Assembly (NCBI GenBank): GCA_000004985.1
Contig: GG738849.1
Strand: one strand, 5' to 3'
Source of the DNA: Naegleria gruberi
Lineage: Eukaryota
Length of the DNA: 64,000 nt
The notes beneath the pieces are model-generated. The model was not told the DNA's origin. It saw only the letters and a program-made list of their open reading frames with translations, and ran no database searches. A program made the position numbers and the translations under genes. Positions 26,513-62,176 of the stretch are shown in pieces. Positions within the stretch are counted from its first letter, which is position 1. Every line of letters starts with the position of its first letter.

Positions 26513-26959
26513 CCTGCCACATGTATAATAATTCATTCGGTCAACTTTTTCTGATTGAAAATTAAAATATATTGCAACATCAATCTGGGAATCATCAATA
26601 TCAAATGGCAATCCACAATTAGCTTGATTTTCTGTAAAATTATTCATCAAGACGATATTAATATCAAATCTTGCATATTGTTTGACATTTAAATTTTTGA
26701 CATCTTGATTGATTTGCATAGCAGCCACCCGAAGAAGATTTTGCATAGAGCATGGCATTTGCTTTCCGCATTCATTATTCTCTTGTACTATTGTAATCCC
26801 TCCGAAATCATCATAATACTTTGCAAAATATGTGTAATTAAATGTTACTCTTTCCAGTGTTGTTAAATTTTCTAGAGTTTGAGTGTACGCTCTTGTTGTG
26901 TTAAAGAAAAGGCACAGTGCGAGCAAAATAAGTATTTGAAGAGTGGGGCATCGAAGCAT
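26513..26959 (-). CDS. Hypothetical secreted protein, N-terminal part (gene runs into the gap)
   Basis: Hand translation of the minus strand from the ATG at 26959-26957 gives MLRCPTLQILILLALCLFFNTTRAYTQTLENLTTLERVTFNYTYFAKYYDDFGGITIVQENNECGKQMPCSMQNLLRVAAMQINQDVKNLNVKQYARFDINIVLMNNF... It stays open for 149 codons to the gap edge. It is absent from the ORF track, presumably because it is truncated by the N run. The hydrophobic N-terminus looks like a signal peptide. No family recognised. Confidence 0.45.
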
Positions 26960-28847: not shown

Positions 28848-30455
28848 TTAACAACATGCAATCAGTTCATGATTTACTAAGTGTTCATAATCTACATCGT
28901 CTTCATTGTGAGAGATCATGTGAGATACCCACTCTTCATTGCCAAATGATAAACGATCTACATGATGGTGTTTAATAGCAAAGTTGGTAGAGTCTGAACA
29001 GTTCATGACTTCATTAACTCCATCTTCTATTAAACCCCTTCTGAGAGATTCCTTTCTGTATTTACATGGTTGAGATGAGTTCAAACTCAAATAGTGATAA
29101 TAGAGGGGAGAGTCAATACTTTTAAGATATTCAACACTGTCCTTATCCTTTTCCAGGAAGGCATAAAGATAACAGCAGATGGCTCTCCACTCATTCAGGA
29201 ATGGGATTGGATTAACATTTAAATTGAGTATTCTAAACGCCTTCTTTAACAATTGAATCATATCTTCGTGTCTATGATTGGTCCAATAACGAAAGACATA
29301 GGTACAAATCTCCCTAGCATCATCTCCCATATATTTACTGGCACAATAAATGTTGGAGAGGGCATTCTTTGGGAGAAAGTTGGAACAGAATGAGTATTCG
29401 TGAGCATCCATAAAGTGATCGGTTTCAACTGTAAATTCATACTCCTCACACAATTCGATGAGTTGTCTCTTAGCAATCTTGTTACCAAAGTAAGCTGGCA
29501 AGTAGAGTCTGAGCATGCTACTGGTACCAAAAAAGTCTGTCAGTGGGCAAACTGTAAGGAAACGAAGAGTCAACTCGATTGGATAGAAAACTTGGGAGAT
29601 AAAATTACTATTTTTGAGTATTTTAAGCTTGGAAACGAGAGATTTGAAATCGTAAATAGTTTTCAATGGTACACATTGACAAATTCTACTCAAAATTTCA
29701 AACTCTTCAACTGTACAACCACTCTCAAACTTTTCAATTAACTTGGTTGTGAGAGTTGGATTTGGTCTGAAATGGAATACAGTGTCGTATTGATTTTTCA
29801 TTTGGGGAAGAAAATCCTTCTTGTACACTTCAGAAGGAGCATTGCTGACTGATCTCTGTTTCCATTCGTTGAGTAATTGATCGAGTGGAACGACCATATT
29901 CTCCAAACTCTTGTATCTATCACAGCAAACACTCGTATACAGAACATCACCCAAGAAAATCATATCGATCAGAGTTCTATATTGTTCAGAGTGATGAATG
30001 GTAAATCTAATGATATTGAATGTAAAGAGGATTTTTTGCCCCATCACTATTGCTTCACCTGCATCTTTGGTTACATCTGTTAATTGAAATCCATTGAAAT
30101 CTCTATTTCTCATTCTCATGGATACTCTTCTCTGGTTGGGATAACGTGGAGCTGATTTTCTTCTTGAGAACAGTATCTGCTTGTTGCATTTCTCCAAGGT
30201 CTCTACCGATTCACATATGGATTCATAGTAACGTTGTTGAAATTTGATCACCTCCAACTGATTCTTTTCTAGGGCTTGTATAATCATTGTATTGATAAGG
30301 TTATTATCAATTGTATAGTACATGTTAAGGTGAATAGATGTTCCTTCCTGAGCACGTGTTGTCTGTATGGCCTTCTCTATCAGGGCGGAATAGCCACCCA
30401 CCGAAGGAACACAAGCAGGCATTTCACTAATGTTTTCCAATACTGTCTTGGACAT
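28848..30455 (-). CDS. Hypothetical protein, 535 aa, no recognisable domain
   Basis: Uninterrupted 535-codon ORF with a genuine ATG (cat at 30453-30455 on the plus strand). Composition is coding-like with no low-complexity runs. I could not match it to a known family by eye. Confidence 0.6.
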   Translation of the reverse strand: MSKTVLENISEMPACVPSVGGYSALIEKAIQTTRAQEGTSIHLNMYYTIDNNLINTMIIQALEKNQLEVIKFQQRYYESICESVETLEKCNKQILFSRRKSAPRYPNQRRVSMRMRNRDFNGFQLTDVTKDAGEAIVMGQKILFTFNIIRFTIHHSEQYRTLIDMIFLGDVLYTSVCCDRYKSLENMVVPLDQLLNEWKQRSVSNAPSEVYKKDFLPQMKNQYDTVFHFRPNPTLTTKLIEKFESGCTVEEFEILSRICQCVPLKTIYDFKSLVSKLKILKNSNFISQVFYPIELTLRFLTVCPLTDFFGTSSMLRLYLPAYFGNKIAKRQLIELCEEYEFTVETDHFMDAHEYSFCSNFLPKNALSNIYCASKYMGDDAREICTYVFRYWTNHRHEDMIQLLKKAFRILNLNVNPIPFLNEWRAICCYLYAFLEKDKDSVEYLKSIDSPLYYHYLSLNSSQPCKYRKESLRRGLIEDGVNEVMNCSDSTNFAIKHHHVDRLSFGNEEWVSHMISHNEDDVDYEHLVNHELIACC

Positions 30456-33623: not shown

Positions 33624-35441
33624 TTAGACCATCACTGGTTCTGTTGGTGGTTCAGTTGCCACCTCTGTGGTACTGGTAGAAGCTGGAGGTGGAATGTTTC
33701 TTCTTGGTGTTTTTAGGATATCTGCTGGTTTCTCTTCATCATCATTACTCGATTGACTTGTGAAAAAGTTATTGGCCCATTTTGAAGCTCTTTCACCATA
33801 AATAATCTCGAAGGCATCTACATTGAAGGTCATGTAAGATGAAAATGCAACAATAACCACCATACAAGCATCTAGGAAAATATTTCTTGTTATTCCAAAG
33901 AATAATCCAATCACATCAAATCCAAATGAATAGGTAATCAGACACAACAAGACAACAATCCAAGTAATGATGAAAATCACTGTCACACCAAGAATAAACT
34001 TGGTGAAACGATATTCAAATACTGGTCTATCGTCCATCTTTCTCAAGGTCACCAAAATTTTCACACCATAAAACGAGAAACCAATAGTAAAGGTCATCAT
34101 GTAAACTAAACCAGCACATGACAATACAATGTAAGCATAACCATAATTACCAGTGGCAACAAAAACAATCAAGGCAATGACTATTGAAACTATCAAGCAA
34201 GAATAAAAGATCGAGAGAATAATCTTATTGTACAGTGAGAGACCTTGCTTTCCATCCTTTCTATTCGAAATATCAATGATGTGAGACCACAAAATAACCA
34301 AAGAACTATATCCACACAAGCAACACAATGCAGTCAATGCTCTGAACAATCCAGAAAAGTAAACATCAAAGAATGGTTTCAGAGAATTGAAATTAAAGAT
34401 AAATCTGAGAAAATTCTCAATCGTTCCACAAGTTGCTGCCAACAACAACCAAAAAACTGGATGACTCACAATATCAAATATATGCCTAATTGAGAATAGT
34501 ACCTTCTTGTATGTTTCCACATTCAGTTTGTTCAGTTTCTTCTTTAGTGTGAGAATTCTCTCAGCAATTCTTGGAATGGAAATGAATAAAAGTAAAATTA
34601 CAAAGAGCGAAGCATAAATCAGAGTGAAAACAATGACAGAATATCGATAGACGAAAGCTGTTTGATAATCCTGATAGAAATCACTGCATGTAAATCCAAA
34701 ATACGAATTGTCATAATTCTGATAATTACACCAACAATTGAAAGGTAAATTCATGGTTGATTTCCAAGAAGCTGAATCAGAATTCCATATAGAATCCATA
34801 TAATACTTGAATATTGTTGTAAGATTGGCCACTTTCATATAAGTATCTTTTGTAGTATTCGAGTCCAGTAAATTATTATTCGAAAGATAATTTAAATAGT
34901 CCCTCTTGAATAATTCTGTTACAATAAACGATGAATCAAACATTGCCAAACTCTTCACTGGTGCTGCTTGATCATTTCCATTACAATGAGTATTCAACAA
35001 ATTCAATACTTTCGAATAATTATTTCCACCAAATAAACTACAATTCTGCAAATTCTCCCTAAAGTCTGATCTCTCACAATATAAACAATAATTCATCACC
35101 GAATCGAGTTGACTTCTTTGTGTCTTGTTATTCAAATCCCATAGATTCGAATAAAAAGATGATGGTTTCGAACACAATAATTCTTGACAATTAATTTCAT
35201 CATTTTCATGTTCATTGCAATAATCCAAGTAATTAGTGTCGAAAGCATATAGTTTAGGATAATAGAATTGGTTAACCGGCGGCAGGTCTAAACATTCATA
35301 TGTCGGATATTTTAATTTACTAACAGAAAAGGATGATGAAGATTCGGCTTGAACTTTTGTCATCATGCTGACGAAGAATAGGATGCTAATTAACAAGTAT
35401 ACGAAACTGTTATTCGAATTGATTAGAATACTTGTCGACAT
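33624..35441 (-). CDS. Seven-transmembrane receptor-like protein with a signal peptide and Cys-rich N-terminal ectodomain
   Basis: 605-aa ORF with a true ATG at 35441. It has an N-terminal hydrophobic signal and a roughly 250-aa ectodomain with many Cys and N-x-S/T sites. Seven hydrophobic helices follow (VIVFTLIYASLFVILLLFISI ... IFLDACMVVIVAFSSYMTF), then a Pro/Thr-rich cytoplasmic tail. The topology resembles the GPR107/GPR180/TMEM87 (GOST) class; the family assignment is inference. Confidence 0.65.
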   Translation of the reverse strand: MSTSILINSNNSFVYLLISILFFVSMMTKVQAESSSSFSVSKLKYPTYECLDLPPVNQFYYPKLYAFDTNYLDYCNEHENDEINCQELLCSKPSSFYSNLWDLNNKTQRSQLDSVMNYCLYCERSDFRENLQNCSLFGGNNYSKVLNLLNTHCNGNDQAAPVKSLAMFDSSFIVTELFKRDYLNYLSNNNLLDSNTTKDTYMKVANLTTIFKYYMDSIWNSDSASWKSTMNLPFNCWCNYQNYDNSYFGFTCSDFYQDYQTAFVYRYSVIVFTLIYASLFVILLLFISIPRIAERILTLKKKLNKLNVETYKKVLFSIRHIFDIVSHPVFWLLLAATCGTIENFLRFIFNFNSLKPFFDVYFSGLFRALTALCCLCGYSSLVILWSHIIDISNRKDGKQGLSLYNKIILSIFYSCLIVSIVIALIVFVATGNYGYAYIVLSCAGLVYMMTFTIGFSFYGVKILVTLRKMDDRPVFEYRFTKFILGVTVIFIITWIVVLLCLITYSFGFDVIGLFFGITRNIFLDACMVVIVAFSSYMTFNVDAFEIIYGERASKWANNFFTSQSSNDDEEKPADILKTPRRNIPPPASTSTTEVATEPPTEPVMV

Positions 35442-35921: not shown

Positions 35922-38413
35922 TTAATACAAATTATAAATAAACAATTCCTTCTTTTGTTTTTTCGATAAAATTGAACTCTTCACAGCTCTCCTCTCCACA
36001 ACTCCCAATAATTTACCTTTCCAACACACAAACAATGAATCTAAATGAGTATTCTGATAGAGAATTTGATGAGCTGTGTGGACATCATTCGATTCACTTA
36101 AAACTACATCACAACTTTGATAGTCAATGAGAAGAGATCGTTTCTGGTTGGTGAAATCTCGTTTCGTCTTGTCAGTTTCTTGTTGATTTTCAGATAATTC
36201 ATTCCTTTCAACAATTTCCTTCTTTTTCAAGTATTGTTCAATGAGGGAATTCTTTGAAACCTTTCCAAGTAGAATCAAATCCTTTCTATTATTGATAATT
36301 GGAATAATTTCAACAGTTGAGCTTTTCAATTTTTCCAATATAAACTCCATCACTTCAAACGAAACTTCCTCCTCCAGAATAAACTCCATCTCATCAAAGG
36401 GTTTCATAATAGTCACAAGTTTCAACTCATCTGAATCAGTTTGCTGTTCCAACATGGCATTCCACCCTCTCAAATCAATTACAATATTATACATGCCCAA
36501 TGAAAAGTATTTTGTAATACTCAGTGCAATGACACTTGCAATGAGAGATGGAATATGGGCCCCTCCTCCTGCCATTTCGAGAAATATTACAACTACTGAA
36601 TAGGATTGAGTAACACAGGCAGCACTTGCCACTCCACCAACGAATGCATAAGCTCCAGGTTGTAGGAATTGTTGTTTCTCAGTTTCGTATATGCCAAACA
36701 AGTAGGGAAAACCATTTGGTGCGAGTATGGAAATGATTTCACCCATGATTCGTCCAACAATGGTGCCTAGTAAAATAATGCCATTGTAGGAGCCGCCTGG
36801 AATTGGAAGGACAATTGTGAAAATGATGAGGAAGAATTTGATGACTAGTAAGATGAATAAGGATTCGAATACTTCTGTTGGAGAATTGGTAAACCAATTG
36901 TTTTCTAGGGAAAGACTTTTCGTACTCATCAAATCTTTAAAGAGATTTCCATAGGAGAGTGAAGTGAATTTGCCAAATAAATCTGGGTAGCTCAGTATAC
37001 TTGTCAGTATACTAAACACAATGGTAAGAATAATCTTATTCTCAAATATTTTGAAAATTCGTTGCTTACTTGTCAAATTACTTGTCAAATCCATCCACAA
37101 AATTAAACTTCCAAATTTATCTTTGAGTTTCATCAGGAAAATGTTAATTTGAACGAAAACTATTCCCATCACTCCAATCAATACTCCCAACAATGCAAAT
37201 AAGAGAATTTCAAATGAAGTATATGCAGGATTGACTATCTGAATATCCCAATAAGTTTCATAATCAATATTCAATGTAATGATAGAGTTGAGCGACCTTG
37301 AAACAACAGCACTCAATGTTGCCACAAAAAAAGCTTTGAAATAAGTTCTCATTGAATAATAACCACCCACTAATTCAACTGCAAAGAGAACTGCTCCACA
37401 AGGTGCTGCAAATGCAGCTCCAACTCCAATTGACTATCATAATTGTCAAGTCATGTGAAATAAATTGAAAAACTTACAACTCCACATAAAATTAATTGTT
37501 GTCTCAATCGTTTTGATTTTTCAATTGGTTTGAAAATCTTCAATTTAATCAAGTACAATATGAAAATTGTACAAATGTGAATGGTTGGACCCATTTTACC
37601 CAAAACCATCTGAGATCCAACAACCATGGCCACAGTTACAAGTTTTACAATAAATGTTTGTAAACTCATGGCATCTTTCAATTCGGCTCCATTCAAAATT
37701 GCCTTAATATGGGATACTCCTGAGCCCTCTGCTGATGGTGCAATCAATACAACCATCAATAATGTAATTACAATGAAAAATAAATTGAAAATAATCCAAA
37801 CTAGTAATCGAACTCCAAATAAGGAAGAATCAATTTGTTCTACAATTGTTATCCGTCCTTGAAACATATATCTCAATATTAAATCATGCACATAGGCCAC
37901 CACTCCTCCAAAAACACTAGCAATGGTCAATAGCACCCAAATATACTTCTTCTCCATTAAATTCTTCTTCCTCTTCTTGTGTTCTGCATACTGCAAGTCG
38001 TGTGTCAATTTCACAGTTTTGAGTGCCTTGTAATTATTATCATCAAAGTCTGAAATGATTGATAGTGCTCCACCAACAATTGTTTTGTTGCTTTCAAAGG
38101 TTGAATTGTTGGAGCTAATCACGGAAACTGCTGATGGAAACGCCACCATTGAAGGTGGTTGCATCAGAGAGTTGTTTGATTGTTGTATTCTTGTTGTTGG
38201 TTCTTGTTCTTGTTGCAGCTGATTCATAGATGTGAGAATTTGTGTAGTGGCCACTGCTGTTGAAGTTGTTGTTGTTGGAGGAGTTTGGTGGTCATGATGA
38301 ATAATAACAGCATGTCCTTGATCCTCGTCTAACTCCAAGTCAACTATCACTCCCTTGTCATTCTTTGAGTCGTCCTTTGCATTGCGATCCTCATCTCTTT
38401 CTTTTTGGGTCAT
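35922..38413 (-). CDS. CLC family chloride channel/transporter with C-terminal CBS pair; 2 exons
   Basis: Exon A is 37478..38413 (true ATG at 38413, MTQKERDEDRN...; the ORF-track start at 38542 is TTG) and carries the CLC motifs GSGVSH (canonical GSGIPE) and GKMGP (canonical GKEGP). A 44-nt intron follows at 37434..37477 (GTAAGT...GATAG). Exon B is 35922..37433, beginning SIGVGAAFAAPCGAVLFAVELVGG (CLC helix-F motif), and continues through the CBS domains to the stop. Confidence 0.85.
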
Positions 38414-38680
38414 GTGTTGGATACCACAAAGTTTTGTTGTTTTTTTAGTTTTAGATTTATGGAATGTCCCACCCTCTAGTGAACACAATTGAAACTGATG
38501 CCATTTTGGTAGCCATGTACTGATTTGAATTTCTTTTGGCAATATTACGTTCCATTAATTGGTGACTTTTTTTTGGTTGACATGTTTGTTGTGAACATAC
38601 AGTTTCATGTTCCATGGAACAAACACACATGTATTCATGTATTATTGAACTGTGTTACAAGGTCAGCAAAAAGAGTGAGT

Positions 38681-40129
38681 TTAATTATTTAGAGAGCCGT
38701 AGGCATACTTTCTTTGTCTGGATCTTAAATAAAAGAAGATGAAGGCAAATAATGTGATAATGTTAGTGACCACAAGGACTGGAGTGATAACAATGAATGC
38801 TGTTGTTACTTCTGCATTTCCACGTTCGTATTTACCAGAGCAAACTTCCAAATTATAGTTTCCACAAACTAGACACCAATCATCTACAATAGAGTTGGCT
38901 TTAAGGACCTTTTCAAAAGTGGTAAGTGGACAAAATTCATCTGGACAGCCCAAACTCTTCAAAGTGAGTGGTGTAAAACTATCATCATCGTATCCGTGGT
39001 TGTAAACTAATCTTACTGCCTTTGAACCATCACTCATAAGATGCAACTCAAATCCTAAATTGGAACCATATGGTGGATGACCACCCATTTGTTGGTAATC
39101 ATTTACAAGCTTCAAGCTTCCAGAAATTGCTTGACTAGAAATTTGAAACATTCGAAAATTGATGATGAATATTGCTGCTACTTACATGGTTGAATCGTGA
39201 GCACTATAGTGCACATACTTGTCCTTCTTTTCGTGCATGACTTTGAGTAAATTCTTATTGAACATACTCATTCCTTCCCTTCCCATCACATAATAGCTGA
39301 AATTCAATCTCAATAATTCGTTTCTCAAGCTCTCCAAAGTTGACCAATTATCAATAACCCATTGTAATTTCAATACTTTGTGAGAATATTGAGTTTGCAA
39401 CAAATCAAACAAAATATGTAAATCAGTATCTGGTCTACCACTCCAACCAGTAATCTTGTATAAATCATCAATAAAAGTTCTATACTTGCTAATGGTATTC
39501 TTATACTCTTGAGTGTTGATAACATCTTTGGTACGTTGTTCGACGCTGTTGCATAATTCAAAACCTCTCAACGTAGCATCAAGTGGTTTCGATTCAGAGT
39601 GAATTGGAATAGCTTGTGTTCCATTAGGTAATGCAAATCCAAGAGATGGTTCAGAAGGATTAACAATTGATTGATATCCAGTTCCTTGTTTAAATAATCC
39701 CATAGAAGCACTCCAAATTGACATTATTGTTCTATCAACATCTGTCGATCTAAAATAATACATTGTTTGATTGTAATTGGTTGAAATTCCATCAATTCTA
39801 GAACTAGATGATTCATTCAAATATCTTCCATACAATACATTTCCCATGTGATTACATTGTTGTTGTCCAAGTCCAGTTAACTGCCCCTCCTTCAATCCAA
39901 ACACATCATACCAATTGAATGGGTCTGTCGGAACAAAATCATTCTCATGAATTGTTGTTCTATCACAATGTCTCGATACCATCTGTACTTGTAATAATTT
40001 TACTGATTGCAATCCTCCCAATACAACATCCAAGCAACAACACACCACCATCACACCCACCATCATGCTCATCAGCAAGACTGTTTGCGACTTGTTGCTC
40101 CTGAAACTCTGCAAAGTTTGAAGGGACAT
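38681..40129 (-). CDS. Histidine acid phosphatase (lysosomal/prostatic acid phosphatase branch) with C-terminal TM anchor; 2 exons
   Basis: Exon 1 is 39186..40129 (true ATG at 40129) with a signal/TM segment and an RHCDRT motif (canonical RHGDRxP). The C-terminal catalytic HD motif lies in ...HYSAHDST. A 51-nt intron follows at 39135..39185 (GTAAGT...TTCTAG, phase 2). Exon 2 is 38681..39134 (IQAISGSLKLVNDYQQ...) and ends in a hydrophobic anchor plus a short basic tail. Confidence 0.75.
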
Positions 40130-40450
40130 TTTTTTTACAGTTCACTCGTTTTGGACGCATCGAGCATGTCGCTTTTTTGATTCGGGCAACAACAAAGGCC
40201 AAAATCTTCATGTTTTGTGATTGAGTGATTGGTTGAGGTGGGTTGGATAATTTTTGATGATTGTGAATTTCAATAGATTTTTGAAAGATTTTTTCATCTT
40301 AAATGTTGGTTGTATGCTTTGGAATAGTAATTCTTTCATTTGTTCAACAATGGGTCTCTTATGTATTAAGATCATTCCCGCCAAAATTCTCAAAGTTTAG
40401 ATGAAAATGTGGTGGTCTTGTTGCCACTCAATTCTTTCCCTCAAAAAAAA

Positions 40451-41599
40451 ATGAAATCACATCTTCCTTACATTTCATGTTTGTGTAATTCTCTCAAAGA
40501 ATCTACTGATCAATTTGTTTCATCATCGAGTATTAAAATACCAAGGCTTGATTGTTCACTTTCGAATTGTGAGAATGAATTGATTTGTAAATGCTATTCG
40601 GATGGAAAGGTAATTGTAGAGAATTTTAATAGGGATGGCTATTTGTTGAGGCTGAAGGAAGGAGAAGGCTTTAGATATGTTTCGTGTGCTTTCGGATTGA
40701 TTTCTAATAGAAGATTGATGATTCTTGCAAGATCAGACAATATGTTGATTATTCTATTAGAAGGCTTGAATGACAATATTCGAGTGTTTAATCAAATCGA
40801 ATCATTTCTGGTTCCATCTTCTAGTAATGTCTCTTGTCTTGATGTGAATCAATTTAGAGGTAGTAATCTCATTATGAATAGTATTATAGTTGGATGTTAT
40901 GATGGCAGTCTCCATGTATTCACATTGATGTTAAGCAATCAGGATCAATTACTTGTTGCCCATCAACCATTTCCCAATTTTGAGGGCCACAAATCTATTG
41001 GAATCTTAAAGGTTAAGGAAGAATCTAATACCATGATGGTTATTGGGAGCTCAAATACGAACTCTTCATTGCTGTATATTGCAAGAACGGATGGTGTATT
41101 GCAAGTGTGTAGGTTGACAACAATGAGAACGTTAGAAAGTGTAACCTCAGAGATTGAAACTATCAAATGTATTGCAATCAATTCATGTGCTTGTGCATTA
41201 TCATTCTGCGACTTGTTAATAGACAGGGAAACTGTTAAGGTAATTGCAATTTCTGGAATTGATTACTTTTCCATTTATTATTCAAATGATAACTTTGCAA
41301 ATTATGGAAAGATTATTATTAATTTACCAATCCACAGGGTGATTACTTCCATTCTTGCATTAAGGTTAGAAAGAGAGGACAAGGACATGCTAAGTTTATT
41401 ATTTGGTGATGAGCTTGGTCAACTATATAGAGTCAAGATTACAGATCTCAAATGTCCCTCAATAACAATCGAACCAAAGAATCTTCTTGGCACTCCCCAA
41501 TCCTCCTCCATGGTCATGCAAAGTGTCCTAGTAAGAAGATCATCCGACAAGAACTCAATCATCTTTACAACAAGAAGAGACGAAACACAAACATTTTAA
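40451..41599 (+). CDS. Hypothetical protein (about 382 aa), possibly beta-propeller-like
   Basis: ORF 40409..41599 begins at GTG; the first in-frame ATG is at 40451 (MKSHLPYISCL...). Composition is coding-like with alternating hydrophobic and turn segments typical of beta-rich repeats. No family recognised. Confidence 0.55.
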   Translation: MKSHLPYISCLCNSLKESTDQFVSSSSIKIPRLDCSLSNCENELICKCYSDGKVIVENFNRDGYLLRLKEGEGFRYVSCAFGLISNRRLMILARSDNMLIILLEGLNDNIRVFNQIESFLVPSSSNVSCLDVNQFRGSNLIMNSIIVGCYDGSLHVFTLMLSNQDQLLVAHQPFPNFEGHKSIGILKVKEESNTMMVIGSSNTNSSLLYIARTDGVLQVCRLTTMRTLESVTSEIETIKCIAINSCACALSFCDLLIDRETVKVIAISGIDYFSIYYSNDNFANYGKIIINLPIHRVITSILALRLEREDKDMLSLLFGDELGQLYRVKITDLKCPSITIEPKNLLGTPQSSSMVMQSVLVRRSSDKNSIIFTTRRDETQTF

Positions 41600-41746: not shown

Positions 41747-43063
41747 ATGTTTCCACCCAAATCACGGTCCATGCCACTCGTTCCAACAACATCAAATTCT
41801 TCTTCTCCATCATCGACGGAGAATGATAGTGGCGCCACTAAATACTTTACCAGAGAACAGGTTGCTGAGCACTGTACGGAACAAGATTGTTGGATGATTT
41901 GTCATGGTTTGGTCTATGATGTGACTCACTATTTGAATGAACATCCCGGAGGTGTTCCTCTGATGATGAAGAGTGCTGGAAAAGATTGTACGAGTGATTT
42001 TGAAGCCATGTTTCATAGTCCAAAGGCTAGGAATATTCTTAAACGATACAAGGTTGGAGAATTGGCTCAAGCTCCATCATCATCGAGTTATAGAAGAAAT
42101 TTGTCAGCCAATTCGGCAGTACCTGTCACTTCTCCAAATAACTTATTGTCTCCATTTTCGATACCTTCTGGAAAAGTGGAACAAGTTAATCCGTATAATA
42201 TGAAGAATCGTTCGAGTGGATTTAAGGAACCAGTTAAAACACAAGTAGAAGTGGAAAAGAAGCCAATGGCTGTCGTATCAACATCATTATTTATGAATTA
42301 TAAGGTCATGCTGGTTCAGAATATTACACATGACACAAAAGTATTCACAATGAAATTACCAGTAATTGGAGAATATCTTCCTCTAAAGCCAGGTCAACAT
42401 ATTCAAATTGCATTTCCAGATGAAACTTCTGAAAATTCTCTTTTAGTTCGAAAATACACTCCAACAAATGTGAATAATAGAGGATATTTTGAGTTGACTG
42501 TCAAATTATACCCAGAAGGAAAAATGTCACAAAGATTAGCCAAAATTAAAATTGGAGATGTTCTTTCTGCAAGAGGACCGTTTGGAATGGAGGATTTTGC
42601 AACACGAATTACCAATAGTGATAATTTAATAATGATTTGTATTGGAAGTGGAATTACTCCAATGTATCAAATGATTAAGCATGTTGCAAAAGAAAGAGAA
42701 GAAGGTACCATTATGAAATTGAAAAATATGACTCTATTATATGGCAACAAGACATTACAGGACGCTATTTTTGAAAAGGAATTGACGCAGCTTTCTAAGG
42801 AAGTGTCAAACAACAATTTTGATTTTATTGTGGAACACAAAATCAGTAGAGAAACACCAGAAGATATTGCCAAGAGTGCAAGTGATACATCTAAAAATGT
42901 GCGATATAGTACAGGTAGAATGGATCAAGACTACTTGAAGGATAAGGTTGGCAATTTGTCGAATAGTTTATTCCTTATTTGTGGAACTGATGATTTCTGT
43001 AACTCTACAAAACAACTCCTCCTGAATGTGGGATATAATCAATCTTCCATTCACTCATTCTAA
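41747..43063 (+). CDS. Cytochrome b5 domain fused to an NADH-cytochrome b5 reductase-like flavoprotein
   Basis: True ATG at 41747. The N-terminal cytochrome b5 heme-binding domain has the HPGG motif (VTHYLNEHPGGVPLMMKSAGKDCTSDFEAMFHS). The C-terminal ferredoxin-reductase-type FAD/NAD module has RKYTP (the RxYT/S FAD motif) and GSGITPMYQ (the NAD(P)-binding GxGxxP motif). Single exon, 438 aa. Confidence 0.85.
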   Translation: MFPPKSRSMPLVPTTSNSSSPSSTENDSGATKYFTREQVAEHCTEQDCWMICHGLVYDVTHYLNEHPGGVPLMMKSAGKDCTSDFEAMFHSPKARNILKRYKVGELAQAPSSSSYRRNLSANSAVPVTSPNNLLSPFSIPSGKVEQVNPYNMKNRSSGFKEPVKTQVEVEKKPMAVVSTSLFMNYKVMLVQNITHDTKVFTMKLPVIGEYLPLKPGQHIQIAFPDETSENSLLVRKYTPTNVNNRGYFELTVKLYPEGKMSQRLAKIKIGDVLSARGPFGMEDFATRITNSDNLIMICIGSGITPMYQMIKHVAKEREEGTIMKLKNMTLLYGNKTLQDAIFEKELTQLSKEVSNNNFDFIVEHKISRETPEDIAKSASDTSKNVRYSTGRMDQDYLKDKVGNLSNSLFLICGTDDFCNSTKQLLLNVGYNQSSIHSF

Positions 43064-43220: not shown

Positions 43221-44486
43221 TCATACCACTTTGTTCGAGTGCAATTTCTGATGTAGTATGGTATTAAATTCTCTCAATAAAAGCATTACTGCCTCAATAG
43301 TGGAAATTCTTCCCTCTACCTTTCCTGCACGTACTAGACGGAACACATATTTATAATCTTCTGGTAAATCCACTCTGATTCTCTTTAAATTTTTAAAGCT
43401 TTCTTTTCTATTGAGCATTCTTGCGTCATTCCAAGTACCATCAACTGAGAAAATGAGATTGAAATCAATTGTGATAGAAGAATTTTAAAACTTACTAATA
43501 AACATGTGAAAATGGAAATCATTAACATCTGAAAGTCTTTCCTTCACTGCACTGTTAAGATTGGAATAGAATGAATCCAATTCCTTTGGTAATGTTTCAC
43601 CTATTGTTGTGGAATCATCTGACGGATACAGAACATAGGCAAAATGATTTGCCGATGGTTGTTTGGTCATCTCAACAAGACTATCAATGGCATGTTCATG
43701 CATATCATGTTGTTCAATGTACATGTTCGTTGTTTGAGCTTGGTCACTGTGCAAGAGAATTTTACAACTATTTGTCGACTTGTGGAACTCCTTCTTGTGA
43801 ATGAGAAAATGTAAATGAAGATTGAGTTCAATCTTTTTCACGTCAACAGTCTGAGATTCTACCACCTTTTCCCAATGTGGATTAAATGTAAATGGCTTCA
43901 GCTTTCCACATAGGCAATGATTGAAATGCATCCAACAATATTTACATCTAGTATCTGCACTTTCTACTAATTTTTCATACAAGTTGTTATATACGAAATA
44001 TTTCTGTAATTCCTCATGTGAAAACTTTGCAATGGCTTCTTTCTTATCTACTTTTCCCAATTCTTGATTCATTATAGCATCTTCTGTTAGAAAATCAATT
44101 GTATTCCTATAACTCGTATTATAAATTTGTTCCAAGCCTTCAAAATTTTTCAAATCAATTTTTCCATCAATTCCCAATTCCATTTCTCTTAATTTCTTAG
44201 CAGTAGGTTTTCTTAAATTTAAACAAGATGAATGAAACTCTCTTCCAATAGCACCAATAGCACTCTTGAATATTTCCAAATAATAATTTCCTTTGAAATT
44301 TCTAATTGAATTTTCAAATCCAATTCCTTCTCCGATTCTTGTTGTTACAATTTTATGTTGATGTTGTTTTTGATATGGATAATATTGCCGACCACAAATA
44401 TTATTATTACTCCCTTTCTGCTGCGACAATAGAAAAGAACAACAACTTTGATGAATGAATTTTTTTTGATGTTGAAACTTGAACAT
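43221..44486 (-). CDS. DTW-domain protein (tRNA-uridine aminocarboxypropyltransferase, DTWD family); 2 exons
   Basis: Exon 1 is 43496..44486 (true ATG at 44486) and contains the Cys cluster CKYCWMHFNHCLCGK and the VLYPSDDSTTIGE motif. A 51-nt intron follows at 43445..43495 (GTAAGT...TCTCAG, phase 1). Exon 2 is 43221..43444 and begins IDGTWNDARML (the DTW motif). About 170 aa of N-terminal extension precede the Cys cluster. Confidence 0.7.
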
Positions 44487-62103: not shown

Positions 62104-62176
62104 CGCCCCACGTGGGGCTCGAACCCACGACCGTTGGATTAAAAGTCCAACGCTCTACCGACTGAGCTAGCAGGGC
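62104..62176 (-). tRNA. tRNA-Lys (anticodon UUU), intron-less
   Basis: Minus strand: acceptor GCCCTGC / GTGGGGC (five Watson-Crick plus two G-U pairs), A-box TAGCTCAGTCGGTAGAGC, anticodon arm TTGGA-CTTTTAA-TCCAA (anticodon TTT), variable CGGTC, T-arm GTGGG-TTCGAGC-CCCAC, discriminator G. 73 nt. Closely resembles metazoan tRNA-Lys-UUU. Confidence 0.9.

What the first reader, a model, noticed from the sequence alone, without database searches (positions are those of the whole stretch)
37371..37730. CLC protein lacking both the gating glutamate and the proton glutamate, with an altered selectivity-filter motif
In CLC proteins the GKEGP glutamate gates the pore and couples H+ transport. Here the motif reads LGKMGP, with Met at about 37592-37594. 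The GSGIPE chloride-coordinating motif reads GSGVSH (37709-37726). In helix F the transporter-type xEE is AVELV, with Leu at the internal proton-glutamate position (about 37371-37373). Established CLC channels and transporters differ at exactly these positions (ClC-K has Val for the gating Glu; channels have Val for the proton Glu). A Met/Leu combination predicts an uncoupled, constitutively conductive or otherwise atypical CLC. The altered filter could also change anion selectivity. I cannot recall a characterised CLC with Met at the gating position.
Basis: partly seen in the sequence, partly recalled or inferred. Interest (0 to 1): 0.6.

Follow-up and report, generated by a model that had tools for sequence, protein, structure and literature searches.

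The report
Naegleria chloride channel with methionine gate
This is an intact, already annotated but unstudied CLC chloride-channel gene of the amoeba Naegleria gruberi; the glutamate that normally gates the pore is replaced by methionine, a change conserved in a small amoeba-specific clade, which probably makes it an ungated channel like the kidney ClC-K channels.

Summary
A two-exon gene on the minus strand (38413..35922, one 44-nt intron) encodes an 815-aa CLC. It is identical to Naegleria gruberi NEG-M XP_002681773.1 / UniProt D2V2B7, annotated "voltage gated chloride channel". Alignments to human ClC-1 and ClC-2 and a confident AlphaFold model confirm the register.

It is neither an error nor a pseudogene. 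An independent metagenome contig carries the same codons, and dN/dS against it is about 0.05.

The protein belongs to the channel branch (best matches ClC-1 and ClC-2). A non-acidic residue at the "proton glutamate" site is therefore normal for it.

Met at the gate is not unique. It marks a conserved "M-type" subgroup of a heterolobosean CLC clade (Naegleria, Willaertia). This subgroup also carries Leu at the inner site and has lost the prolines of GSGIP and GxFxP. Sister paralogues carry Val or keep Glu. About a quarter of the 150 nearest CLC clusters lack the gating Glu.

The central Ser and Tyr are retained. The most likely function is a ClC-K-like anion channel with no glutamate gate and no proton coupling. 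This is untested. Interest is moderate to low.

The parts
35922..38413 (-). Whole CLC gene (ATG 38413-38411 to stop 35924-35922). It encodes an 815-aa protein identical to N. gruberi XP_002681773.1 / D2V2B7.
   Evidence: Gene model. Exact-sequence look-up. Pfam Voltage_CLC 2.1e-50.
37478..38413 (-). Exon 1 (aa 1-312): disordered N-terminus, helices B-G, and the GSGVSH and GKMGP motifs.
37434..37477 (-). 44-nt GT..AG phase-0 intron. The same position is used in related genes on L005 and L006.
   Evidence: The intron is also present in the L001 allele with one substitution.
35922..37433 (-). Exon 2 (aa 313-815 plus stop): helices G-R and the CBS region.
38042..38413 (-). N-terminal low-complexity region, predicted disordered (aa 1-124).
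   Evidence: pLDDT <50 for residues 13-124. One in-frame codon indel against L001 lies here.
37709..37726 (-). GSGVSH (aa 230-235), the GSGIPE equivalent. The central Ser (S231) is kept; the Pro is replaced by Ser and the Glu by His.
37586..37600 (-). GKMGP (aa 272-276). The Met274 codon ATG at 37594-37592 replaces the gating glutamate at the N-terminus of helix F.
   Evidence: Helix 274-290.
37368..37382 (-). AVELV (aa 330-334), end of helix H. E332 is conserved. The L333 codon at 37373-37371 occupies the inner 'proton glutamate' position.
36780..36794 (-). GSYNG (aa 526-530), the GxFxP equivalent at the N-terminus of helix N. Phe is replaced by Tyr and the Pro is lost.
   Evidence: Helix 528-549.
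36489..36491 (-). Tyr627 codon, the central tyrosine at the N-terminus of helix R. It is conserved.
35925..36437 (-). Cytoplasmic C-terminal region (aa ~645-815) with two divergent CBS-like beta-alpha-beta-beta-alpha units.
   Evidence: Aligned to ClC-1 CBS1 and ClC-2 CBS2. Pfam CBS 17.2 bits, below the cut-off of 24. Secondary structure.

Best explanation
The gene encodes a functional member of the channel branch of the CLC family, in a Heterolobosea-specific paralogue clade. In it, the pore-gating glutamate (Glu_ex) has been replaced by an uncharged methionine.

Shown here:
- The protein has the CLC fold.
- It retains the Cl- coordinating central Ser and Tyr and the Lys before the gate residue.
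- It is under strong purifying selection.
- The Met is conserved in an 'M-type' subgroup across Naegleria and Willaertia.

Inferred:
- There is no carboxylate to compete with Cl- for the outer and central sites, and none to shuttle protons. The protopore (fast) gate and any Cl-/H+ coupling should therefore be absent.
- Each subunit should conduct anions passively and largely independently of voltage and pH. This is how vertebrate ClC-K (Val at this site) and Glu_ex-neutralised mutants of ClC-0, ClC-ec1 and ClC-5 behave.
- Regulation would be left to the common gate and the CBS domains.
- Given the codons, Met (ATG) was most simply reached from Glu (GAR) through Val (GTG), the state still seen in sister paralogues.
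For: Identity and intactness:
- Pfam Voltage_CLC matches at 2e-50.
- The spliced model is identical to XP_002681773.1.
- Against an independent allele there are 18 synonymous and 3 non-synonymous codon differences, pN/pS ~0.05.

Channel branch:
- The best solved relatives are human ClC-1 and ClC-2 at ~1e-50, against ClC-3 at 4e-38 and CmCLC at 1.6e-34.
- The AlphaFold2 model has pLDDT 80.9 and pTM 0.76.
- Its TM domain superposes on the ClC-2 and ClC-1 TM domains with target TM-score 0.90-0.91 at 2.7-3.5 A, against 0.83 for ClC-7 and 0.82 for ClC-ec1.
- Most neighbours carry the channel-type SIEVT motif.

Pore residues: S231, K273 and Y627 are conserved, and M274 sits at the helix F N-terminus.

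Clade conservation:
- The heterolobosean clade has 100% bootstrap support.
- Met is present in the query, N. gruberi D2VWH6, a related metagenome gene (L002), and Willaertia KAL9655957 and KAL9651533.

Precedent:
- ClC-K lacks the gating Glu (Val) and is a channel (PMC7757909, PMC4188032).
- The protist EhClC-A is described as a pH-insensitive ClC-2-like channel (PMC9799330). An Entamoeba invadens relative in the neighbouring group has GKVGP.
- That neutralising Glu_ex opens the gate or uncouples transport is established knowledge (Dutzler 2003; Accardi & Miller 2004), cited from memory.
Against: - No functional data exist for this protein or any M-type relative.
- No published Glu-to-Met mutant was found. 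Met is as long as Glu and hydrophobic, so it could occlude the pore rather than vacate it.
- Side-chain placement could not be inspected in the model.
- The M-type group also lost the prolines of GSGIP and GxFxP, so pore geometry may differ from ClC-K.
- No sequence motif reliably predicts channel versus transporter (PMC12639529).
- Whether protist 'SIEVT' CLCs are true channels is known for very few.
Confidence: 0.55

Rival explanations
1. M-type CLCs are a functionally distinct subclass, not merely ClC-K-like. A remodelled outer and central site changes anion selectivity or replaces the carboxylate gate with a hydrophobic Met gate, possibly a redox-sensitive one. The remodelling consists of Glu to Met, loss of both filter prolines, and Leu at the inner site.
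For: - Four pore-region changes travel together in all five M-type sequences: GSG[LV]xx, G[KR]MG[PA], xELx and G[ST]Y[LN][QG]. V-type paralogues instead have GSGI[PS]x, GKVGP, xEAx and GxY[IV]P.
- The signature is kept between Naegleria and Willaertia and is under purifying selection.
- All Met cases among the 150 nearest clusters fall in this one clade.
Against: - The central Ser and Tyr, the usual determinants of Cl- versus NO3- preference, are unchanged.
- Anion coordination in CLCs is largely by backbone amides (PMC9726985), which tolerate side-chain change.
- The co-variation may simply reflect shared ancestry. The internal branches of the clade are unresolved, with 36-38% bootstrap.
- There is no functional evidence.
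Confidence: 0.2
2. It is a slow, uncoupled anion uniporter (a 'broken exchanger' like ClC-ec1 E148A) rather than a high-conductance channel.
For: - Glu_ex-neutralised exchangers become uncoupled but remain slow (established knowledge, cited from memory).
- The channel/transporter boundary among protist CLCs is poorly resolved and lies in a 'transition group' (PMC12639529).
- No sequence motif predicts the class (same paper).
Against: - Sequence and modelled structure are closer to ClC-1, ClC-2 and ClC-K than to any exchanger, including CmCLC.
- The neighbours are overwhelmingly SIEVT-type.
- The model shows a short extra helix (434-443) between helices J and K, a feature reported as channel-associated (PMC12639529).
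Confidence: 0.15
3. It is a non-conducting or regulatory subunit. The Met plugs the pore, and the protein acts only as a heterodimer partner of paralogous CLCs.
For: - N. gruberi has at least three paralogues of this clade.
- Three of the four filter motifs are degenerate.
- A T. brucei CLC lacking all consensus residues is known (PMC5731698).
Against: - Strong purifying selection acts across the whole TM domain.
- The Ser, Lys and Tyr pore residues are retained.
- CLC pores are contained within each subunit, so a dead pore would have little reason to keep these residues.
Confidence: 0.07
4. It is an artefact: a sequencing or assembly error, mis-registered motifs, or a decaying pseudogene.
For: - The bacterial ORF listing splits the gene in two.
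- Pfam CBS falls below threshold.
Against: - The two ORFs join through a canonical 44-nt intron to give exactly the deposited 815-aa protein.
- An independent contig has the same motif codons.
- pN/pS is ~0.05.
- Four independent register checks agree.
Confidence: 0.02

Closest known systems
Vertebrate ClC-K channels (ClC-Ka/Kb, bovine CLC-K; PDB 5TQQ)
   Same: Both are channel-branch CLCs with an uncharged residue in place of the gating glutamate and a non-acidic inner-site residue. Both keep the central Tyr and have a cytoplasmic CBS pair. The structural match is E 2e-25 with target TM-score 0.73-0.75. This is the best functional analogy.
   Different: The gate residue is Met here, not Val. 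The two are not orthologous: the query sits in a Heterolobosea-specific clade. GSGIPE and GxFxP are intact in ClC-K but read GSGVSH and GSYNG here. Dependence on a barttin-like subunit is unknown.
Human ClC-1 / ClC-2 (PDB 6COY, 7XF5, 8TA2)
   Same: These are the closest solved relatives by sequence (E ~1e-50) and by fold (TM-domain TM-score 0.90-0.91, rmsd ~2.7 A). They have the channel-type hydrophobic residue at the inner Glu position.
   Different: They keep GKEGP and are gated by that glutamate. Identity is only 22-26%.
Paralogous heterolobosean CLCs: N. gruberi D2VWH6 and D2V9I4; Willaertia magna KAL9655957, KAL9651533, KAL9653793
   Same: They fall in the same 100%-supported clade. D2VWH6, KAL9655957 and KAL9651533 share the M-type signature of Met, Leu and loss of both filter prolines.
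   Different: D2V9I4 (GDVGS) and KAL9653793 (GKVGP) carry Val with Ala at the inner site. A related metagenome gene (L006) keeps GKEGP. Identity to the query is 26-37% over the full length. None has been characterised.
Glu_ex-neutralised mutants (ClC-0 E166A/Q/V, ClC-ec1 E148A/Q, ClC-5 E211A)
   Same: The charge at the same position is removed. These mutants are the experimental basis for predicting an open protopore gate and loss of H+ coupling.
   Different: They are engineered, not natural. No Met substitution was found in the searchable literature.
Protist CLCs studied experimentally: Entamoeba EhClC-A, T. brucei TbVCL2, and 'ngCLC' of the Fortea Verdejo thesis
   Same: EhClC-A is reported as a pH-insensitive ClC-2-like channel (PMC9799330). 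An E. invadens homologue with GKVGP lies in the group next to the query's clade. TbVCL2 lacks all consensus filter residues (PMC5731698). ngCLC is a 'putative channel' in the channel/transporter transition group (PMC12639529).
   Different: I did not have the EhClC-A sequence, so its gate residue is unverified. TbVCL2 is ClC-6/7-like. The species and identity of ngCLC are not given in the paper. It may or may not be a Naegleria gruberi protein, let alone this one.

Membership tests
CLC superfamily (Pfam PF00654 Voltage_CLC) | Profile match above the curated cut-off | tested here: met
   172.3 bits against a cut-off of 24.8, residues 215-616.
CLC superfamily | CLC transmembrane fold, with filter helices D, F, N and R converging by their N-termini | tested here: met
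   The AF2 model has TM-domain pLDDT mostly >90. Target TM-score is 0.90-0.91 to the ClC-2 and ClC-1 TM domains. V233, M274, Y528 and Y627 lie at or within one residue of the helix starts (helices begin at 233, 274, 528 and 626).
CLC superfamily | Central serine (GSGIPE motif) | tested here: met
   S231 is conserved. The rest of the motif is degenerate (GSGVSH).
CLC superfamily | Gating glutamate (GKEGP) | tested here: not met
   M274, with the ATG at 37594-37592. ClC-K also fails this feature, so it does not exclude membership.
CLC superfamily | GxFxP motif at helix N | tested here: not met
   It reads GSYNG: Phe is replaced by Tyr and the Pro by Gly. Coordination at this site is by backbone amides.
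CLC superfamily | Central tyrosine at helix R | tested here: met
   Y627 aligns with ClC-1 Y578 and is conserved across the clade.
Eukaryotic CLCs | Two C-terminal CBS domains | tested here: inconclusive
   Pfam CBS scores 17.2 bits, below the cut-off of 24, and only for the second unit. The region aligns to ClC-1 CBS1 and ClC-2 CBS2. The model shows two beta-alpha-beta-beta-alpha units at good pLDDT.
Channel branch (ClC-0/1/2/K-like) | Closer to known channels than to exchangers in sequence and structure | tested here: met
   ClC-1 and ClC-2 match at 1e-50, against ClC-3 at 4e-38, CmCLC at 2e-34 and ClC-7 at 1e-27. The TM-score ranking agrees.
Channel branch (ClC-0/1/2/K-like) | Non-titratable residue at the inner 'proton glutamate' position | tested here: met
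   L333. Neighbours have V 72, T 9, L 8, I 7, A 6, E 6. This is typical but not diagnostic (PMC12639529).
Channel branch (ClC-0/1/2/K-like) | Passive Cl- conductance without H+ coupling | not testable with these tools
   This needs electrophysiology or flux assays.
ClC-K-type (glutamate-less channels) | Neutral residue at the gating position | tested here: met
   Met here rather than Val.
ClC-K-type (glutamate-less channels) | Orthology with vertebrate ClC-K | tested here: not met
   The query lies in a Heterolobosea-only clade with 100% bootstrap, far from metazoan sequences in the NJ trees. The resemblance is convergent.
CLC Cl-/H+ exchangers | Both the gating and the proton glutamates present | tested here: not met
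   M274 and L333.
Heterolobosean 'M-type' CLC subgroup (defined here) | Signature of G[KR]MG[PA], xELx, GSG[LV]xx and G[ST]Yxx without Pro | tested here: met
   The query reads GKMGP, AVELV, GSGVSH and GSYNG. The signature is shared with P0014, the L002 gene, P0010 and P0015. Monophyly of the subgroup is unresolved.

The most novel reading that the evidence does not exclude
The Met-bearing heterolobosean CLCs are a mechanistically distinct class. In this reading a hydrophobic methionine, co-evolved with Leu at the inner site and with loss of both filter prolines, replaces the carboxylate gate. The result would be either a hydrophobic or redox-sensitive gate, or a changed anion preference, rather than a simple ClC-K-like open pore.
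Probability: 0.2. Interest if true: 0.6.

Novelty: new variant of a known kind. Interest (0 to 1): 0.35.

Why it matters
The gating glutamate is the central mechanistic residue of CLC proteins. ClC-K (Val) is the textbook natural exception.

This work shows that glutamate-less pores are frequent among protist channel-type CLCs. One conserved subgroup uses Met, a residue about as long as Glu, together with a coordinated set of other pore changes.

Within one organism group there are E-type, V-type and M-type paralogues. That gives a natural series for asking what the gate side chain contributes to gating, coupling and selectivity, and how the Glu to Val to Met path was tolerated.

It would also add to the very sparse knowledge of anion channels in Naegleria, a genus that includes the pathogen N. 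fowleri. The prediction itself (an ungated, uncoupled channel) is conventional, so the finding is useful rather than surprising.

Tried and rejected
- Word-indexed homologue searches were almost empty. The query shares few exact 5-mers with relatives, and low-complexity words swamped the candidate list. The exhaustive HMMER search with exon 1 gave the useful set.
- The first attempt at a full-length MAFFT alignment and NJ tree timed out. It was redone on trimmed TM regions.
- A metagenome-contig scan with an M-type alignment found nothing.
- The hypothesis that the neighbouring 'nitrate reductase' gene (41747-43063) hints at nitrate transport was rejected. It has only cytochrome b5 and FAD/NAD reductase domains and no molybdopterin domain. 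The CLC also keeps Ser, not the Pro of nitrate-selective AtCLCa.
- Sequencing error, mis-registration and pseudogene were all rejected.
- Literature searches for E-to-M mutants and for Naegleria CLCs returned nothing relevant.
- The identity of 'ngCLC' could not be resolved.
Full report
**What is there**

The first 26,512 bases of the window are N. The rest is AT-rich (GC ~35%), gene-dense eukaryotic DNA. The bacterial ORF listing splits the region of interest into two minus-strand ORFs, 37451..38542 and 35922..37370. Reading the minus strand shows a canonical 44-nt GT..AG intron at 37477-37434, in phase 0. Splicing exon 1 (38413-37478) to exon 2 (37433-35922) gives an 815-aa protein.

An exact-sequence look-up shows this protein is XP_002681773.1 / EFC49029.1 / UniProt D2V2B7, annotated [quoted passage not shown]. 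Three other ORFs of the window are also exact N. gruberi proteins from the same 850-kb scaffold. The window is therefore N. gruberi NEG-M, and the gene is already annotated, although I found no study of it.

**Check of the observation**

- GSGVSH lies at 37726-37709 (aa 230-235).
- GKMGP lies at 37600-37586, with the Met codon at 37594-37592 (aa 274).
- AVELV lies at 37382-37368, with the Leu codon at 37373-37371 (aa 333).

phmmer alignments to human ClC-1 and ClC-2 place these under GSGIPE, GKEGP and SIEVT respectively. Pfam Voltage_CLC matches at 2e-50.

An AlphaFold2 model built on a 56-sequence alignment is confident: mean pLDDT 80.9, pTM 0.76, TM domain mostly >90. It places V233, M274, Y528 and Y627 at or within one residue of the N-termini of the helices corresponding to D, F, N and R. 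That is the geometry of the CLC selectivity filter, so the register is right.

**Not an error, not a pseudogene**

A contig from an unrelated metagenome assembly (ENA ERZ929261, L001) carries a ~99% identical allele with the same codons at all three motifs and the same intron. Over the whole CDS the two alleles differ at 18 synonymous and 3 non-synonymous codons, plus one in-frame codon indel in the disordered N-terminus. This gives pN/pS ~0.05.

**What family it belongs to**

The best solved relatives by sequence are human ClC-1 and ClC-2 (~1e-50). They come ahead of ClC-3 (4e-38), ClC-K (6e-38), CmCLC (1.6e-34), ClC-7 (1e-27) and ClC-ec1 (~1e-8).

By structure, the TM domain matches the ClC-2 and ClC-1 TM domains at target TM-score 0.90-0.91 and rmsd 2.7-3.5 A. 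The corresponding scores are 0.83 for ClC-7 and 0.82 for ClC-ec1.

An exhaustive HMMER search with exon 1 found 1,946 relatives. Most of the best 150 carry the channel-type SIEVT motif. At the inner-Glu position the covered neighbours have V 72, T 9, L 8, I 7, A 6, E 6, M 3, S 2. The Leu is therefore ordinary for this branch.

The C-terminus aligns to ClC-1 CBS1 and ClC-2 CBS2. It folds as two beta-alpha-beta-beta-alpha units. Pfam CBS is sub-threshold at 17.2 against 24 bits.

**How unusual is Met at the gate?**

Among the 150 nearest 50%-identity cluster representatives the gate position reads E 106, V 15, M 6, D 5, L 5, Q 4, and I, A, N, T once each, with 5 unscorable. Roughly a quarter of these relatives lack the glutamate, but every Met case belongs to one clade.

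Name look-ups identify that clade as Heterolobosea. It contains N. gruberi D2V9I4 and D2VWH6 and Willaertia magna KAL9653793, KAL9655957 and KAL9651533, plus unnamed metagenome contigs. I reconstructed the spliced genes on three of those contigs.

In a bootstrapped NJ tree the clade has 100% support. Its internal branching is unresolved at 36-38%.

Three pore "flavours" occur inside the clade:

| Type | Members | GSGIPE site | Gate motif | Inner site | GxFxP site |
|---|---|---|---|---|---|
| M-type | query, D2VWH6, L002 gene, KAL9655957, KAL9651533 | GSG[LV]xx | G[KR]MG[PA] | xELx | G[ST]Y[LN][QG] |
| V-type | D2V9I4, KAL9653793, L005 gene | GSGI[PS]x | GKVGP or GDVGS | xEAx | GxY[IV]P |
| E-type | two tandem genes on L006 | GSGIAP | GKEGP | xEIx | GVYIP |

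The central Ser (except in the outlying P0016) and the central Tyr are conserved throughout, as is the basic residue before the gate residue in all but D2V9I4 (GDVGS). The intron after aa 312 is shared with the L005 and L006 genes.

The neighbouring group in the NJ trees is Archamoebae. Entamoeba invadens has GKVGP, and Mastigamoeba and Mastigella have GKQGP.

**Mechanism (inferred)**

There is no carboxylate at Glu_ex, so nothing competes with Cl- for the outer and central sites and nothing carries protons. By analogy with ClC-K (Val; PMC7757909, PMC4188032) and with Glu_ex-neutralised mutants (established knowledge, cited from memory), the protein should be an uncoupled anion channel without a protopore gate. 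Regulation, if any, would come from the common gate and the CBS domains.

Retention of the Ser, Lys and Tyr pore residues, together with strong purifying selection, argues that the pore is used.

ATG is two substitutions from GAR but only one from GTG, so Val is the likely evolutionary intermediate.

The model also shows a short helix (434-443) between helices J and K. Mishra et al. associate this feature with channels (PMC12639529).

**What remains uncertain**

- Met is as long as Glu and hydrophobic, so it might occlude rather than vacate the pore.
- The M-type group has also lost both filter prolines, so its anion site may be remodelled. This is the basis of the novel reading.
- Mishra et al. 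stress that no motif predicts channel versus transporter. They place a "putative channel ngCLC", from an unpublished thesis, in a transition group.
- No Glu-to-Met mutant and no Naegleria CLC study turned up in the searchable literature. That library is incomplete.

**Verdict**

This is a new natural variant (Met-gated-position, "M-type") of a known kind, namely glutamate-less channel-type CLCs, in an annotated but unstudied gene. Interest is 0.35.

Noticed in passing
window 1-26512: The first 26,512 bases of the window are all N, either padding or a scaffold gap. Real sequence starts at 26513.
   Followed up: yes
window 41747-43063 (+): The gene deposited as 'nitrate reductase' (XP_002681617.1) has only cytochrome b5, FAD-binding and NAD-binding domains, with no molybdopterin or dimerisation domain. 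It looks like a cytochrome b5 reductase-type fusion, so the name is probably an over-annotation. No link to the CLC is implied.
   Followed up: partly
window 38681-40129 (-): Immediately upstream of the CLC gene, two ORFs (39182-40129 and 38681-39151) appear to be joined by a ~50-nt GT..AG intron. The join follows '...SAHDSTM|gtaagt...ttctag'. Together they would encode a histidine acid phosphatase (His_Phos_2) with a C-terminal hydrophobic segment.
   Followed up: partly
window 55687-55758, 55855-55928, 62104-62176 (-): There are three tRNA genes: Arg-TCG, Val-AAC and Lys-TTT. Two of them lie about 100 bp apart.
   Followed up: partly
L006 6-1442 and 1669-2802: A heterolobosean-like metagenome contig (ENA ERZ27315067) carries two CLC genes of this clade in tandem. 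The second keeps the canonical GKEGP gate, so glutamate-bearing members persist inside the clade. The same sample also has M-type (L003) and V-type (L005) genes.
   Followed up: partly
clade alignment; query aa 274 and 333: The gate residue and the inner-site residue co-vary inside the clade: Met with Leu, Val with Ala, and Glu with Ile. Val with Ala also recurs outside the clade, in 5 of 15 Val cases. The two sites are not thought to be in contact. Whether this is phylogenetic inertia or coupling is unresolved.
   Followed up: partly
L001 (ENA ERZ929261, run ERR1078381, PRJEB11402): A metagenome assembly contains a 6.8-kb contig ~99% identical to this N. gruberi locus. A very close Naegleria strain was therefore present in that sample.
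   Followed up: no
window 43485-44486 (-) and 40409-41599 (+): Neighbouring ORFs give only sub-threshold Pfam hits: DTW domain at 30.9 against 33.7 bits, and an RSE1/DDB1/CPSF1 beta-propeller at 26.8 against 30 bits. Large ORFs at 33624-35441 and 28848-30455 have no Pfam match at all.
   Followed up: no
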